A DNA stretch of 64,000 nucleotides from Diadema antillarum (lineage: Eukaryota), in contig NW_027271164.1 of the NCBI RefSeq assembly GCF_040938485.1, positions 2,108,001 to 2,172,000 on the forward strand, written 5' to 3'. Positions 6,229 through 12,200 of the stretch are shown here, piece by piece (within the stretch, counting starts at the first letter, position 1; the number at the start of each line of letters is the position of its first letter). The position numbers are program-made.

Positions 6229-9200
6229 CGTTTTATTTTCCCCATATAGTTATGTTTAGTTCTCTTTTCATTGAACCAAGGAAACATTATCGTGATTATG
6301 TACATAATATATCCAGCAGGATGTTGAAAAAATACGAGGTCAGTGTGAAATGGATGTCCTTTTCCAATAACAAAAAAACAACAACAACACACACACACAC
6401 ACACACATACACATACACACAAAATCTTTCCGCCGCATTTCCAGCTCAGACTCTTTCCCCACATGAAACAGGACAACTGTCCATATGATCTCTTTAATAC
6501 GTGCTTCAGGCAAGCATAAATAAGTCTAGGTGACATTGTGATTCTTTAGCTGTGATGTTGACAGGATAAAGCCAAATATTGAAACTGGGTAAAAGTTCAA
6601 AATTTTCAATCTTTTCTCTGACGCATATATTGTAGCTGAATAAATATTCAAGTCCAAACGAGTCCAAGTGAAACTCGCGTTCAGTGAGTTGCATTTCCCT
6701 ATATTTGAAACGTTCTCTTCAAACAGTGCAGTTCTGACGATGCTTCACACAGATATTGGTTTACATTAGCATAAGCTCTCCTTTATTTGCGGGGAATTTC
6801 TGTATTGGATTAAATAAAGGATGAAAGAAATAAGAGTTGTATAAAAGAATGACTGAATGATGATCGTCTCTTGTATGCGATGAATTTTGATCTGATATTG
6901 GCTGTAACTTGTGCTGTGAAATCACACCAATCACACCAGACAGATTTACTCTTATAGCCCAGAGATACACAATAACAGCGCACATTCGACTCTAAACTGA
7001 ACACCATAGAAACAATACATAGTCTATGATATCAAGGGTCTCATCCATACATGAATGTAAAAAGGGTCTAATCCTTGGAATGAATTGACAAACTCCTCTT
7101 GTTCTTGGTATTCGAGGCAAAATAACCTAAATTACGAAAGAATATGATATACAGATTACGTCTATTCAAACATATGTATCAATGCTTCCATGCTTATATT
7201 ATTTGCATTTGTATTATAAATATCAGAAGAAAGTACATGGATATAGCAGCATTGCGTTTATCTTTAAATACCCGATTTTCATTCCCCCTCTCTCTTTTTC
7301 CATGTATTATTGCAAACGATTATTGATAAACATGTCTTATTTTTTGTTAGTATTTAGCCACTTAACAAAACAGACATGATTTTTTTTTCGTTATCGTGAA
7401 TATGTTGTAAAGGAAGATATTCACGTCAATGGCTAAGAAATCATGACAGTCAAAGGTAGGAAACTTTAAAAATGATACACAAAGACAACATCAAGGAGAG
7501 TTTCCCTTTTATTCGCTCCACTTAGGTCACTGCTAAATAATGTCACTAAAACTGCTTGACAGAGCAATACTGCATACGCAAAAGAGAAAGAACAGCGATA
7601 GGTAGAGAAAATATGTGAAAATTGAAGGCATTACGACACTTTACACCACATAAACTGGTGGCTGGGATTATGTACAGTCTTCTGTCACAACTTCAATTAA
7701 CTGAAACCTTTACAGCTCTACTTTTATATTCATATTGTGTTACCATCACCAAAATGATGGATAAATTGTAACTAGCCTTGTAATTTTGAACTGTACCAGG
7801 AAAATGACATTATCGTATGATGTGTAAATTAGTGTTAGGTATATCTAGACGTGTACCCAAAATTCGAAACCAAATTACATCCTAAACTGCTACAAAAAGT
7901 GATGACATTAGTTCAAGGACATGCAGCTGTAAAGGGATTCCAATATTATTCTAGTATATAGTATCGATGTAATTGTGATAGCTTCATCATGAATTAATCA
8001 AACAAAACATAAACGACAAGACGACGAAACAATGAAGTACGCATACTAAGCCATGCTCGAGCTATCACGTGACATTTTCTTTTGACAGGTTTGAGATTCG
8101 TGACAAAGAAGGTTAATTGCAGGTAGGTTCATTCTTGTATTCCTCAAACGCCTGCTGCCATGCTGTCATCTCAGTCTTCCAGTCATCATAAATTTCTCGC
8201 CATTCCTTCTCAGTGTCACTAATGTCGTCTGGATAAAATGAACGTAAAACCAAGGTTTTTAATCTGAGTATTTTCCTCTGTACAAAAATTCAGTACATGT
8301 AGTCGTATATATATTAATTTCTGTCCAGCCATTGAAAGACTGAAAATAGTGGTAAAAATATTGTATCATACGTGTTATAATGAATGATTTGACTGAGCGT
8401 AGCGCCAACAGTCTTACAATGTACACGAACAATAAAAGGAAGATCCGAGCGGTGTTGATTTTTCTGTTAATAAACGAAATGGTCAACCTTTTACAAGTAG
8501 GTCCTAAATATTTAAAACAAAAGTAGAGAGGGTATGTTTATTACTTCAGAAGACCAACTTTAAAATGGAATGAGCGTCTGCTCCTGACACCATGCCATAT
8601 TAAGCATCTCATCATTCCAAGCATAGAATCCTTGTTATTTTGGTGTTTAATATCTATTCCTCCACGTAAATACAACATTAGATATGTCTAGATCTGTGTA
8701 TTATTCTTTATATAGACGGATATATCATGATCTATCACCTTTAAAATTAAACTGTGAGAGAAAGCCTGACCCTTAATGCATGTGCTTTGAGATGTAGCTA
8801 AACACAAAGACGAGGCATGAATGGTACCTGTGAAGGCAGCGAGGGAAGGGATGTACTGGTTCCAGAAATGACACTGCCTGGCTCTGACAGCCCTCCCCGT
8901 GGGTAGCCCTACTGTCATCTCCTTGTATGTGAGGTCAGGAATGGTGTACTCTGGCCAGGCGTACTGTCCTTCCCATGGGTCTGAATCCATGCTCGGCTTA
9001 CTGGGATTTCTTTGTAGAAGGAAACAGAAGGAAAACGGAAATCACTTTTTGCTTCTGTTTGTAATGAAAACGTTATAAACCGAGCCTGAAGATTTATGTA
9101 CCATTAGTTCACAACAGCAGGAAATCAAAGAATTTCAGTAGAACAATTCAAAAGTTGAAAGAAGTCCCAATATACATGGAAAATCTTGAACTGCTATAAT

Positions 9201-12200
9201 CTTCCAAACATAGCCTGCATTAGTAAAACATATACATTTGAAAAAAAAAATATCATTGCCGCTTTGGGTGACATTTTACAATAAGTAATCTAATTGTAAT
9301 CTGAATTAGTCTTACAGAAGACAAAGAACAAGGCGACCTTACCCCGACTTTGCAAAGTTCGTCCAAAATTCCATGAACTTAACAGAGAGGGCGTTTTCAT
9401 CTGCCGTCATGTTATGGCCCTTGATGTGATAAAGTTCGTCAATAAATGGAATACCCCATACGAACGTCAGATCTTCTGAATGGGTTGCCCCAAGCCATGG
9501 AGTCGAGGGAACGATGTCTCCATACTGGAAATAGCTCCTTAAAAAAGAAAACAGAAAAGGAGAGAAAGACTTGCACATATAGTATATAGGTGAAACTTGT
9601 CATAAACTGAACTGATAACTGTGGATCAAAAGTTATTTGGAAATTAAACTTATCCAAAATAGTAACGGTAATAATGATGATAATGTGTTCTCGTATTCAT
9701 CATGAAATTAAAAAAAAAAACTACTATGGCTTCCAATTCCTGATACTTGCTAAACAAGCTCGGCGCATGTCTTTTCCATATCCATAAAATTAACGAGATG
9801 TACAAGATGATGATGATGACAGTAATGGCATTTAGAAAGTGCGGTATCGAGGTTGTTACAATTACGAAGTGGGATTGGTAGAGTTCCACAGACGTAGTGC
9901 AACAGAAGAGAAGGCTCTACCCTCATAGACTTTTAGGCGGGTACTGGACACATGGAGAGTCAATTTAGGGTAGGCCAACATAAAACAACAACAACAAACA
10001 AACAAAATGATGATGATAATAATAATAATACGTTGTAGTGTATACTTTTATAGCGCAACAGTCCATCAAAGAGATGCTCATGGCGCTTTTAGTCTTAAGG
10101 TTAGGAGAAGAAAAAAAAAGATGAACAAGAAGAAAAAGGAATTATGTGACATCTTCACTTTTTTGTTTCCTACAACATATTGAACAGATATGTTTTTAGA
10201 GATGTTTTAAATGATTCCACAGAGGATGATTGGCGAACAGTGACAGGGATATCTTTCCAAACTTTTGGTCCAATGCGGGAGAAAGAACGAGTTCACCATG
10301 AATGCTTAACCTTAGGTATCTGAAATGAAAAGTAAGTAGATGGTCGAAGTCTGCAAAGAGGGTTATAACAATATAAAGAATTCTGGATATACTCGGGTGC
10401 AGTCATAGGTAATTCAATACTGTCAAACTATAGGCAAATGAATATGTTACTGGAAAGAAAAGAAAAGTAAATGCTCACTTGGTTGGTTGATGAGTCATGA
10501 AATATTGAAAGACAGGATAGCCAGCCTCGGCGTGCTCCCTGACCACCAGATCGGTCGGGCACCCGAAGTCCATGTCTCCGGACACGTCCACTATGGATCG
10601 GAAGTAGTCGGCCAAGGGGTCATCAGCCACAGTCCAGTCCACGTACTCATGTGTCGTAGCATCGACAATGATGGCGTCGTCCATTTCGACCCATGCGAGT
10701 GTGTTTTGAAGTATCTCATCAAACACGGTTCGATTGAGGTGCGGATGTTCCTCAGCTCCTGCGTAGGAGGGATAGGCGAAGTACACGAACAAGGCGGCTT
10801 TGTCCTTGTTGGATCCAACGAGGATTGGAACATCGGGAAAGTCTCCCTTGTTGTACATAGAGCGAGGGCTCTCCTGCAGAAACACCCCGTCTAGAATCAC
10901 GGGATATCGGTCTGAATGAATCTGGAAATGCCAAACGTTACAATTAGAAATTTATCTCGGGGTTTGGACAGTATCTCTAAGTGTAAGCAAACCTCCCACC
11001 TAACGTGTGCTGTAGGAGGAGAAAGAGATAAGTAAGAACACAGACATTCTTTCCCCATCATTTACTCTCTTTTTTTTTGGGGGGGGGGGGGGTAATGCAA
11101 GAATTCTAATTCGCAGTCAAAATAAGAGTGGATTAAAATAATTCAAAGCGAAAAAGGCTATTTCTAAATCACAGTTTGCCGCATAACTTCCTTAAGTATT
11201 GGTCCAGGGCTCAGCAGTCAAGATATCAAGATGATATAAGTGAAAATGTTCTTGTTCACTATGTCGGTAAGACGTCCAATTGACTTTGCATCAGAATCGC
11301 AACATTTTCACATCAAGCAACTATGACCTAAATGCCGTTACGCAATACCGGTCTGTTTTTCAAAGGTTGTACGATCAAAAGTGCTGAATTCGGATCATTT
11401 TTACTACAGTGAAATGGAAAAATTAGTAAATGAAAGTAAGCAATGAGAAATTCGTGACTTTGATCTCATTTTTTTTCTTACCCTATCTCCAACTTCGCGT
11501 AGTTGAAGGGGATCCTTGGTTCTAAGGCACGACACCAATAGTTCTGAGGTGGACGTGTTACACTCCATTGCTTCACCCACTTCTCTGGCTAACTCTCTCT
11601 CCAATTCAGGGTCATCTCTAAAGGCCCAGTTAGTCAGGGAAGTCCCACTCTGCACACAGAGACAAGAAAGACGAAAACTACAACCATATTCACACAGTCT
11701 CTGATGTGTAAATATCAAGATATGGAAAAAAAAAAGGTTGACTATAAACGCTAAATACTTCTAAAAGTGGACATCTGTGAGTGACAGAATTCATCATATC
11801 CAATACTCAGTACTTCCCATATGATAGACAGCAGTGTGAAAATAAATCAGTAGCATGGATTCATCAGCATGGTGATATGTTTCAAAGACCTCTTAATAGT
11901 GGCAGCATAATTCTGAAAATGCTGAAAATAGCGAAAGTTAATCCTGTACATAAAAAAGATGATCCTCATGAAATTAGTAATCATCGTCCTATTTCTTTAT
12001 TGCCTAGTATATCCAAAATCTTAGAAAAAATTGTTTATGATAGACTTCTTAAATTTATTAATAAGTATGATTTACTTATTCCCAATCAATATGGTTTCAG
12101 AAAAAATTATTCAACTGATTTAGCACTAATACAAATTTATGACAAAATTACGAGTGCTTTTGCAAACAAAGAACATGTTGCAGGTATATTTTGTGATTTG

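What the first reader, a model, noticed from the sequence alone, without database searches (positions are those of the whole stretch)
8113..9537. Tail exons are homogenised across otherwise divergent paralogs (possible gene conversion)
Hand counts for B versus C: exon 7 about 47% aa identity, exon 8 about 70%, exon 9 about 88% aa and ~89% nt, exon 10 5 nt differences in 116 (~96%), with few synonymous changes. The introns next to these exons do not align. The C-terminal tail is not normally better conserved than the catalytic core. The 3'-rising gradient and low synonymous divergence point to exon-limited gene conversion, possibly favoured because it keeps the oligomerisation tails compatible.
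Basis: partly seen in the sequence, partly recalled or inferred. Interest (0 to 1): 0.68.

Follow-up and report, generated by a model that had tools for sequence, protein, structure and literature searches.

The report
Sea-urchin cholinesterase tail exons homogenised
In a tandem cluster of four sea-urchin cholinesterase-like genes, the last two exons of one old, diverged copy have been overwritten to match its two neighbours while the rest of the gene and its introns stayed different, an ordinary kind of event (gene conversion) seen here in an unusually clean, exon-sized form.

Summary
The window is Diadema antillarum DNA carrying four tandem 10-exon cholinesterase-like genes on the minus strand (A cut by the window edge, then B, C, D). 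Between B and C/D, exons 1-8 are saturated at synonymous sites. Identical codons at conserved residues are 112 of 267, close to the codon-usage expectation. In exons 9-10 the figure is 66 of 79 (Fisher p 4e-11).

Protein trees conflict. B's core pairs with a D. setosum protein and B's tail pairs with C; AU tests reject the swapped groupings. Gene A's tail is not homogenised, and in 19 of 20 other family pairs the tail is less conserved than the core.

B's introns 8 and 9 and its 3' flank show no similarity to C/D, although C-D non-coding DNA aligns well at comparable divergence. A 19-nt saturated island sits inside exon 9.

Best reading: short-tract, homology-limited ectopic gene conversion of exons 9 and 10 between B and the C/D lineage, at about the age of the C-D duplication. 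Its direction is unresolved.

This is a known kind of event and of moderate interest.

The parts
8113..8228 (-). Gene B exon 10 (last exon, stop included): tetramerisation-peptide-like tail; homogenised with C and D
   Evidence: 111/116 nt identical to both C and D. 28/30 identical codons at conserved degenerate residues versus C. Pfam AChE_tetra PF08674, E 2.3e-4, 21.3 bits, cut-off 25. Best PDB match 1vzj_A.
8828..9009 (-). Gene B exon 9: end of the catalytic domain; homogenised with C and D except for one island
   Evidence: 162/182 nt identical to C and 158/182 to D. 38/49 identical codons versus C. Aligns with AChE residues about 482-541.
8898..8916 (-). 19-nt island inside B exon 9 that was not homogenised (7 codons, MTVGLPT in B against IAIGLPT in C and D)
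   Evidence: Holds 9 of the 20 B-C differences of exon 9. Permutation p 0.0017 for B-C and 0.009 for B-D. Sd/S 6.0/6.2, i.e. saturated like the core.
8229..8827 (-). Gene B intron 9 (599 nt): unrelated to C/D intron 9
   Evidence: Local-alignment z -0.8 to 1.3 against C or D in three scoring schemes, while C-D gives z 45-101. 0 non-self blastn hits in the window.
9010..9342 (-). Gene B intron 8 (333 nt): unrelated to C/D intron 8; holds the 5' limit of the homogenised block
   Evidence: z -0.2 to 0.9 against C or D, while C-D gives z 46-124. 0 non-self blastn hits.
9343..9537 (-). Gene B exon 8: inside the finding's coordinates but NOT homogenised
   Evidence: pS 0.81 (B-C) and 0.73 (B-D). 17/40 identical codons against 95/227 in exons 1-7, p 1.0. 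Closest to P0003 at 56/64 aa, not to C at 44/64.
25842..25957 (-). Gene C exon 10
   Evidence: Exon model; 111/116 nt identical to B.
26334..26515 (-). Gene C exon 9
   Evidence: Exon model; 162/182 nt identical to B.
40142..40257 (-). Gene D exon 10
   Evidence: Exon model; 111/116 nt identical to B and 112/116 to C.
40983..41164 (-). Gene D exon 9
   Evidence: Exon model; 158/182 nt identical to B and 173/182 to C.
8113..18103 (-). Gene B, 10 exons, 599 codons
   Evidence: The exon-7 and exon-9 peptides match P0001, 'cholinesterase-like [Diadema antillarum]', at 100%. The P0001 sequence equals the exon translations.
25842..36797 (-). Gene C, 10 exons; the masked N run 33974-34110 lies in intron 4
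40142..48180 (-). Gene D, 10 exons; recent tandem duplicate of C (introns align)
   Evidence: C-D intron K is 0.26 pooled over nine introns.
1..5528 (-). Gene A, exons 1-6 and part of exon 7; its tail exons lie beyond the window edge
   Evidence: The full-length protein P0008 matches A's exon 6 at 100%.

Best explanation
Genes B and C/D are old paralogs of a sea-urchin cholinesterase-like family. They lie side by side in the same orientation. At about the time C and D duplicated, or somewhat before, the DNA of exons 9 and 10 was copied between B and the C/D lineage by ectopic (interlocus) gene conversion.

The copying came as short patches: about 93 nt and 70 nt in exon 9, separated by an untouched 19-nt island, and 116 nt in exon 10. 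The patches could not run into the introns or the 3' UTR because B and C/D share no homology there. Since then the tail has been under purifying selection in all three genes (dN/dS about 0.1-0.15).

Shown: the drop in synonymous divergence, the conflict between core and tail trees, the limits at the exon edges, and the island.
Inferred: that the mechanism is short-tract, homology-limited conversion in several events.
Unresolved: which lineage was the donor.

The block that was copied encodes the C-terminal end of the catalytic domain and the tetramerisation-peptide-like tail. Whether selection for compatible assembly helped to fix it is speculation.
For: 1. Synonymous sites.
- NG86 pS for B-C is 0.69-0.90 in exons 1-8, 0.34 in exon 9 and 0.12 in exon 10. 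B-D behaves alike.
- Identical codons at conserved degenerate residues, B-C: 112/267 in exons 1-8 (codon-usage expectation 0.37) against 66/79 in exons 9-10, Fisher p 4e-11. B-D: 118/270 against 65/81, p 5e-9.

2. No general synonymous constraint on the tail. For C-D the same measure is 364/415 against 78/85, p 0.36. Inside exon 9 a 7-codon island is saturated, Sd/S 6.0/6.2.

3. Tree conflict, using 7 database proteins.
- Core, 502 columns: B+P0003 (D. setosum) supported 98/98; C-like+A supported 82/82. AU rejects B+C-like (p 0.00033).
- Tail, 99 columns: B+C-like supported 99/99. AU rejects B+P0003 (p 0.0007).
- The 6-protein run agrees.
- Per-exon trees: exon 7 has the C/D clade without B at 100/99; exon 9 has the B+C+D clade at 93/92; exon 10 has it at 90/91.

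4. The tail is not intrinsically slow. In 19 of 20 other pairs tail identity (0.47-0.63) is below core identity (0.49-0.69). B against C-like is 0.58 in the core and 0.89 in the tail.

5. Exon-limited.
- B-C and B-D HSPs end 2-5 nt outside exons 9 and 10.
- Introns 8 and 9 and the 3' flank score z about 0 against C/D. B has 0 non-self hits there.
- C-D non-coding DNA is found at 68-87% identity by the same blastn.
- Simulated descendants of C's intron 9 were detected in 8 of 8 runs at K 0.46 (lowest z 14.2, 5/-4 scheme). They were mostly detected at K 0.6 and not at K of 0.8 or more.
- Outside the island, tail dS is 0.21 for B-C (95% CI 0.09-0.42) and 0.32 for B-D (0.17-0.59). The intron/dS ratio for C-D is about 1.25.

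6. Mosaic. 9 of the 20 B-C differences in exon 9 fall within 19 nt (permutation p 0.0017).
Against: - Only three nucleotide sequences of the tail are in the window, and there is no nucleotide outgroup. The dS intervals are wide: at the upper limit for B-D (0.59 x 1.25) intron homology could have faded beyond detection.
- The power simulation assumes small indels only. Real C-D introns also carry large indels (coverage 8-100%).
- The shuffles were mononucleotide shuffles.
- Before conversion, exons 9-10 were probably only about 70-75% identical, like exon 8. That is poor substrate for homologous repair, so how the first event started is unexplained.
- The clades for the AU tests were named after the per-exon identities had been seen.
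- No D. setosum orthologs of B, C or D were recovered, so the prediction 'tail clusters by species, core by ortholog' was met only in the weak form that B's core pairs with a D. setosum protein.
- Exon 1 also shows raised codon identity in A-B, A-C and A-D. Some nucleotide-level conservation therefore exists in this family without a clear conversion signal.
- The published D. antillarum assembly was polished with short reads (PMC13511894, section 2.5 read). Such polishing can pull near-identical paralogous stretches together.
Confidence: 0.72

Rival explanations
1. One large event. An unequal crossover or a long conversion tract replaced the whole 3' end of B (exon 9, intron 9, exon 10, 3' flank) with C/D-type DNA, or the reverse. 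The non-coding parts have since decayed or been replaced beyond recognition, while the exons were held by selection.
For: - There is a single sharp 5' limit in intron 8.
- The upper confidence limits of tail dS (0.42-0.59) times the intron/dS ratio of about 1.25 reach K 0.5-0.74, where simulated detection starts to fail.
- Real introns here also turn over by large indels.
Against: - At the point estimates (dS 0.21-0.32) intron homology should be plain. C-D introns at K 0.15-0.34 give z 45-124, and the C-D 3' flank at 68% identity is still found.
- All four exon edges and the stop codon coincide with the similarity limits to within 2-5 nt.
- A saturated 19-nt island inside exon 9 does not fit one continuous tract.
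Confidence: 0.1
2. Conversion templated by a spliced transcript or cDNA. A partial reverse transcript of a C/D-type mRNA, primed from the 3' end, served as repair template for B. This would explain why only exons match and why the 3' end is affected.
For: - The similarity limits sit exactly at the exon edges, in the two most 3' exons.
- Reverse-transcriptase ORFs of retroelements lie in intron 5 of B and of C (RVT_1, E 7.9e-35 and 1e-10).
Against: - Intron 9 is kept in B, C and D. cDNA-mediated conversion is known to remove the intron between converted exons (recalled from the yeast literature, not checked here).
- The 3' UTR just after the stop codon is not similar, although a cDNA primed at the poly(A) tail would carry it.
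- The 5' limit would have to fall on the exon 8/9 junction by chance.
- The island inside exon 9 is unexplained.
Confidence: 0.05
3. No exchange at all. Exons 9-10 are held alike by selection on the nucleotide sequence itself (an RNA element, splicing enhancers, codon preference) on top of protein constraint.
For: - Exon 10 is also the least diverged exon between C and D apart from the 25-codon exon 4 (dS 0.06 against about 0.2).
- Exon 1 shows raised codon identity in several pairs, so nucleotide-level conservation occurs in this family.
Against: - For C-D, tail codon identity is not different from the rest of the gene (78/85 against 364/415, p 0.36).
- The codon-usage expectation is only 0.40 against 0.80-0.84 observed.
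- A saturated island lies inside exon 9.
- The tails of A and of four other family members are 0.47-0.65 identical to the B/C/D tail, no better than the cores.
- Constraint does not explain why B's tail groups with C while B's core groups with P0003.
- No Rfam family matches in the window (0 matches).
Confidence: 0.05
4. Assembly or polishing artefact. Short reads from C and D were mapped onto B's tail exons and the consensus was pulled towards C/D.
For: The published D. antillarum assembly was polished with Illumina reads and retains both haplotypes (PMC13511894: abstract and section 2.5 read).
Against: - Mis-mapping needs prior near-identity. It cannot turn sequence that is 70% identical, like exon 8, into sequence that is 89-96% identical.
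- B keeps private differences (17 in exon 9, 3 in exon 10) and a fully diverged island.
- The limits follow the exon edges, not read-length blocks.
Confidence: 0.03

Closest known systems
Domain-differential gene conversion in the zebrafish NLR-B30.2 family (Open Biol 2016, PMC4852459; passages found with 'gene conversion' were read)
   Same: These are clustered paralogs in which the C-terminal exon or domain is homogenised across otherwise diverged groups, while the N-terminal and central domains keep their group identity. As here, this was inferred from differing synonymous divergence and differing tree topologies of the two parts.
   Different: That case concerns hundreds of immune genes, with positive selection on the converted domain. 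Here there are three genes, a purifying regime (dN/dS about 0.1-0.15), two short exons, limits at the exon edges, and an unconverted island.
Short-tract 'microconversion' between tandem paralogs, e.g. CYP21A2/CYP21A1P and MHC genes
   Same: Patches of tens to a few hundred bases are copied between neighbouring paralogs and give mosaic genes.
   Different: In those cases the paralogs are alike throughout, introns included. Here donor and recipient share no alignable intron sequence, so the patches are confined to exons.
Vertebrate acetylcholinesterase T peptide / tryptophan-rich tetramerisation domain (Pfam PF08674; PDB 1vzj)
   Same: - Exon 10 aligns without gaps with 1vzj chain A over 34 residues, and the C-terminal Cys is aligned.
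- Three Trp lie seven residues apart (read from the translation).
- It is a separate last exon.
- Pfam AChE_tetra E 5e-5 to 2e-4.
   Different: The scores of 21.3-23.3 bits are below Pfam's cut-off of 25. No proline-rich partner has been identified in the sea urchin. Oligomer formation is untested.
cDNA-mediated gene conversion and 3'-biased intron loss
   Same: Exon-only similarity at the 3' end of a gene.
   Different: The intron between the converted exons is kept and the 3' UTR is not converted.

Membership tests
Interlocus (ectopic) gene conversion between linked paralogs | A segment with much lower synonymous divergence than the rest of the same gene pair | tested here: met
   Exons 9-10 against exons 1-8: Fisher p 4e-11 (B-C) and 5e-9 (B-D).
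Interlocus (ectopic) gene conversion between linked paralogs | The segment and the rest of the gene give conflicting phylogenies | tested here: met
   Core: B+P0003 supported 98/98. Tail: B+C-like supported 99/99. AU p 0.00033 and 0.0007 against the swapped groupings (clades named post hoc).
Interlocus (ectopic) gene conversion between linked paralogs | Donor and recipient lie in the same genome, close together and in the same orientation | tested here: met
   B, C and D lie on the minus strand within 40 kb.
Interlocus (ectopic) gene conversion between linked paralogs | Converted segments cluster by species while unconverted ones cluster by ortholog | not testable with these tools
   No D. setosum orthologs of B, C or D were returned.
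Long-tract conversion or unequal crossover (chimeric 3' end) | Non-coding DNA inside and 3' of the tract is co-derived with the exons | tested here: not met
   Intron 9 and the 3' flank of B score z -0.8 to 1.3 against C/D, with 0 blastn hits. C-D serves as positive control and simulations give the power.
cDNA-mediated conversion | Loss of the intron between the converted exons, and conversion of the 3' UTR | tested here: not met
   Intron 9 is present in B (599 nt), C (376 nt) and D (725 nt). Similarity ends 3-4 nt after the stop codon.
Type-B carboxylesterase / cholinesterase (Pfam PF00135) | Match to the COesterase profile | tested here: met
   B exons 5, 7 and 8, scanned one by one: E 8.9e-13, 5.6e-14 and 1.4e-7, all above the 27-bit cut-off. 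The best PDB matches are acetylcholinesterases.
Type-B carboxylesterase / cholinesterase (Pfam PF00135) | Ser-His-Glu catalytic triad (which residues form it is recalled) | tested here: not met
   For gene B only. Lys aligns with the Glu of the AChE 'NKDEG' stretch; Ser (GQSAG) and His are present. C and D have DEG at that place.
AChE tetramerisation (T peptide) domain, Pfam PF08674 | Match to the AChE_tetra profile at the C-terminus | tested here: inconclusive
   21.3-23.3 bits against a cut-off of 25; E 5e-5 to 2e-4 for B, C and D exon 10.
AChE tetramerisation (T peptide) domain, Pfam PF08674 | Three Trp spaced seven residues apart and a Cys near the C-terminus | tested here: met
   Ungapped alignment to 1vzj_A, residues 3-36 to 4-37, with the Cys aligned. 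The Trp spacing was read from the translation.
AChE tetramerisation (T peptide) domain, Pfam PF08674 | Four tails assemble around a proline-rich partner | not tested
   No partner was sought and no complex prediction was run.

The most novel reading that the evidence does not exclude
The copied block is exactly the assembly module of the enzyme: the C-terminal end of the catalytic domain plus the tetramerisation peptide. It is shared between a paralog that has lost its catalytic acid (B has Lys for Glu, and GQSAG) and canonical neighbours (D has GESAG and DEG). Exon-scale concerted evolution may therefore be kept by selection so that a non-catalytic B subunit can still co-assemble with C/D subunits or use the same anchoring partner. 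That would make B a pseudo-enzyme subunit held assembly-compatible by conversion.
Probability: 0.12. Interest if true: 0.6.

Novelty: new member of a known kind. Interest (0 to 1): 0.4.

Why it matters
This is a clean natural example of gene conversion between old paralogs that is confined to single exons because nothing else is still homologous. The evidence includes an internal unconverted island and a built-in control, the young C-D pair. It matters in three ways:
- Whole-gene trees of this sea-urchin cholinesterase family will misplace gene B unless the tail is removed.
- Exon 10 gives a dated, testable case for whether oligomerisation modules evolve in concert among co-expressed paralogs.
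- Gene B is flagged as a possible non-catalytic cholinesterase-like protein.
The finding does not change what is known about conversion mechanisms.

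Tried and rejected
- Ungapped identity in 10-nt bins moving away from the exon edges. This test has little power, because even C-D loses register within 10-20 nt through small indels. Positions 7-36 at four edges gave 36/120 for B-C, 35/120 for B-D and only 47/120 for C-D. It was replaced by gapped local alignment with shuffles and simulations.
- The raised intron 7 score (B-D z 6.4, 0 of 60 shuffles; B-C z 2.8, 1 of 60) is a T/G-rich low-complexity match of 23-28 nt, not homology.
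- Direction of transfer is unresolved. In the tail tree neither B+C-like+A (AU p 0.43) nor B+C-like+P0003 (p 0.17) is rejected.
- Protein searches, done exon by exon, returned few relatives: 3 of 490 candidates, 2 of 6 and 4 of 229. No D. setosum orthologs of B, C or D were among them. The tool itself states that finding none is weak evidence.
- The Rfam scan of the whole window gave 0 matches.
- Literature searches found no paper on sea-urchin cholinesterase tails or on conversion in them. Terms 'sea urchin', 'cholinesterase', 'tetramerization', 'gene conversion': 3 papers held at least 3 of the 4 terms and none was relevant. Terms 'sea urchin', 'acetylcholinesterase', 'T peptide': 0 papers.
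- No complex prediction was run, because the report does not claim that the proteins bind.

Full report
**What is in the window**

The 64-kb window has 36-41% G+C in most 2-kb windows (range 0.31-0.48) and two N runs, 5990-6144 and 33974-34110. I left the N runs as they are. One lies between genes and the other in an intron, so neither touches an exon.

tblastn of the open frames around the finding against the window shows four tandem copies of one gene on the minus strand. I built exon models from frames, AG/GT sites and paralog alignment. Each complete copy has 10 exons with identical intron phases.
- A: 1-5528, cut by the window edge inside exon 7.
- B: 8113-18103.
- C: 25842-36797.
- D: 40142-48180.

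The finding's coordinates, 8113-9537, are exons 10, 9 and 8 of B.

All searches were made exon by exon.
- B's exon 7 and exon 9 peptides match, at 100%, a 599-residue NCBI protein named 'cholinesterase-like [Diadema antillarum]' (P0001). Its sequence equals my exon translations. The window is therefore sea-urchin DNA, not human.
- Exons 5, 7 and 8 match Pfam COesterase. Exon 10 matches the AChE tetramerisation domain just under its cut-off (21.3-23.3 bits against 25).
- The best solved-structure match of exon 10 is the 40-residue chain of 1vzj. The alignment has no gaps and the C-terminal Cys is aligned; the translation shows three Trp seven residues apart.
- Exon 9 aligns with the last 50-60 residues of AChE catalytic domains.

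**Check of the observation**

- exon 7: 69/147 aa (0.47)
- exon 8: 44/64 aa (0.69)
- exon 9: 53/60 aa (0.88) and 162/182 nt (0.89)
- exon 10: 111/116 nt

blastn gives the same picture. It finds 95.2% and 89.3% identity for exons 10 and 9 and 70-77% for the other exon HSPs. Exon 7 is not found at all for B-C. The two strong HSPs stop 2-5 nt outside the exons. B against D behaves the same way.

C and D are young duplicates: dS is 0.00-0.46 per exon and the introns align.

**Is it protein constraint or shared ancestry of the DNA?**

Synonymous sites decide this.
- For B-C, pS is 0.69-0.90 in exons 1-8 (saturated), 0.34 in exon 9 and 0.12 in exon 10.
- A measure that does not depend on a substitution model is the share of identical codons among conserved residues that have a choice of codon. 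It is 112/267 (0.42) in exons 1-8, close to the 0.37 expected from codon usage alone, and 66/79 (0.84) in exons 9-10. Fisher p is 4e-11 for B-C, and 5e-9 for B-D (118/270 against 65/81).
- Exon 8 is at background (17/40 against 95/227, p 1.0). The 'gradient' is therefore a step at the exon 8/9 boundary. Exon 8 is simply a well-conserved exon in the whole family (0.55-0.88 in all pairs), and B's exon 8 is closest to P0003 (56/64), not to C (44/64).
- The young C-D pair shows no special synonymous constraint in the tail (78/85 against 364/415, p 0.36).

**Trees**

The exon-wise searches brought in these family members:
- P0002 and P0006, from other D. antillarum contigs.
- P0003, from D. setosum.
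- P0007, S. purpuratus cholinesterase 1.
- P0004, a C-like protein on another contig.
- P0005, a D-like fragment.
- P0008, found in the library of representatives with A's exon 6. It is 100% identical over that exon, its N-terminal sequence equals the window's A exons, and it supplies A's missing tail.

Per-exon trees had 9 rows for exon 7, with A left out because only 27 residues lie in the window. They had 8 rows for exons 8-10, where A and P0005 have no segment.
- Exon 7: the C/D clade excludes B (support 100/99).
- Exon 9: B joins the C/D clade (93/92).
- Exon 10: B joins the C/D clade (90/91).

I then used seven full-length database proteins as delivered, with B represented by P0001, C by P0004 and A by P0008. 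P0005 and the window's own C and D were left out.
- Core, 502 columns: B+P0003 (98/98) and C-like+A (82/82).
- Tail, 99 columns: B+C-like (99/99).
- AU tests reject B+C-like in the core (p 0.00033) and B+P0003 in the tail (p 0.0007).
- The six-protein run agrees.
- I named these clades after seeing the identities, so the p values are post hoc.

In 19 of the 20 other pairs the tail is less conserved than the core. The exception is P0003 against C-like (0.65 against 0.59). B against C-like has 0.58 in the core and 0.89 in the tail. A's tail is ordinary (57/99 to C-like). Homogenisation therefore concerns B with C/D only.

**Exon limits and mosaic structure**

B's introns 8 and 9 and 600 nt of its 3' flank give local-alignment z scores between -0.8 and 1.3 against C or D in three scoring schemes. 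The same regions of C against D give z 45-124. These parts of B have no non-self blastn hit anywhere in the window, while the C-D 3' flank is found even at 68% identity.

C-D introns have K 0.26 (0.15-0.34), against a pooled dS of about 0.21. Introns therefore evolve about 1.25 times as fast as synonymous sites.

Inside exon 9, 9 of the 20 B-C differences fall in 19 nt (8898-8916; permutation p 0.0017). Those seven codons are saturated (Sd/S 6.0/6.2). Outside this island the tail dS is:
- B-C: 0.21 (95% CI 0.09-0.42)
- B-D: 0.32 (0.17-0.59)
- C-D: 0.13

At such divergence, co-transferred introns should be obvious. Simulated descendants of C's intron 9 were detected in 8 of 8 runs at K 0.46 and mostly at K 0.6, but not at 0.8 or above. 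That simulation used small indels only and mononucleotide shuffles.

The homogenised DNA thus consists of three stretches of about 93, 70 and 116 nt. They are bounded by the exon edges, the island and the stop codon.

The site patterns show no sign of a transfer after the C-D split.
- Exon 9: 17 differences private to B, 2 to C and 6 to D.
- Exon 10: 3 private to B, 2 to C and 2 to D.

**Explanation**

The best reading is short-tract ectopic gene conversion between B and the C/D lineage, confined to exons 9 and 10 because the flanking DNA of these old paralogs is not homologous. It happened at about the age of the C-D duplication.

Rivals, in order of weight:
1. One long tract or an unequal crossover whose non-coding parts have since faded. 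This is possible only at the upper confidence limits, and it does not explain the island or the exact edges.
2. A spliced-RNA or cDNA template. The intron is kept and the 3' UTR is not converted.
3. Nucleotide-level constraint. The C-D control, the island, the other family tails, the tree conflict and the empty Rfam scan speak against it.
4. A polishing artefact. This needs prior near-identity, and B keeps private differences.

The direction of transfer is open (AU p 0.43 and 0.17 for the two placements). How a first event could start between exons that were probably only about 70-75% identical is not explained.

**Comparison with what is known**

Partial, domain-specific conversion among clustered paralogs is established. 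The zebrafish NLR-B30.2 family is one case, inferred from the same two kinds of evidence (PMC4852459, passages read). Short mosaic patches recall the microconversions of CYP21 or MHC genes (recalled, not checked here).

What is particular here is that donor and recipient share nothing outside the exons, so the patches are exon-sized. The copied block is also the assembly end of the enzyme.

Two literature searches found nothing on sea-urchin cholinesterase tails or on conversion in them. Supplements were not consulted.

**What stayed unchecked**
- No eukaryotic contig collection was open, and the genome collection on offer holds bacteria and archaea only. Orthologous nucleotide sequences, the decisive data, could therefore not be fetched.
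- Published D. antillarum assemblies retain both haplotypes (PMC13511894, abstract and section 2.5). P0004 and P0005 on another contig may therefore be the other haplotype's C and D; I did not pursue this.

**Verdict**

This is a new member of a known kind, with interest 0.4.

Noticed in passing
window 10799-10801 (B exon 7) and B exon 5 (14074-14192): Gene B has Lys where acetylcholinesterases have the Glu of the 'NKDEG' stretch (alignment), and GQSAG in place of GESAG. That this Glu is the catalytic acid is recalled. B's closest relatives P0002 and P0003 keep DEG. B may be a non-catalytic cholinesterase-like protein. Gene C has GVSAG, as does P0004.
   Followed up: partly
A exon 1 (5367-5528) versus C exon 1 (36636-36797) and D exon 1 (48019-48180): Exon 1 has raised identity at synonymous positions. 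Identical codons at conserved residues are 22/33 (A-C) and 23/32 (A-D), against 67/163 and 67/164 in exons 2-7 (p 0.012 and 0.0017). A-B is 17/27 against 59/149 (p 0.03). blastn finds 84-85% identity over 114 nt. This could be a second, older partial conversion or a nucleotide-level constraint at the 3' half of exon 1.
   Followed up: partly
database protein P0004 (other contig) versus window genes C and D: P0004 is C-like (exons 1 and 3-6 identical to C, exon 7 143/148). Its exon 9 segment is identical to D's and its exon 10 segment is identical to C's. In exon 8 it carries three residues that match B and differ from window C. It may be the other haplotype's C allele carrying C/D (and B?) exchange tracts, which would mean conversion is still going on in the population.
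   Followed up: partly
window 11781-13301 (+), in B intron 5; 29970-32321 (+), in C intron 5: There are retroelement reverse-transcriptase ORFs antisense to the genes. One is an intact 506-aa frame with RVT_1 (E 7.9e-35) in B intron 5. In C's 3.9-kb intron 5 there are broken frames, one of them with RVT_1 (E 1e-10).
   Followed up: partly
window 24600-25820 versus 39030-40120: The DNA 3' of gene C and the DNA 3' of gene D are homologous (tblastx and blastn blocks, 67-73% identity). The C-D duplication unit therefore included the downstream intergenic region.
   Followed up: no
window 14300-14440 (B intron 4); 1690-1720 (A intron 5); about 6150-6500: There are simple repeats: a TA-rich microsatellite seen as YIYIYI frames, and CA/TG repeats next to the masked N run 5990-6144.
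   Followed up: no
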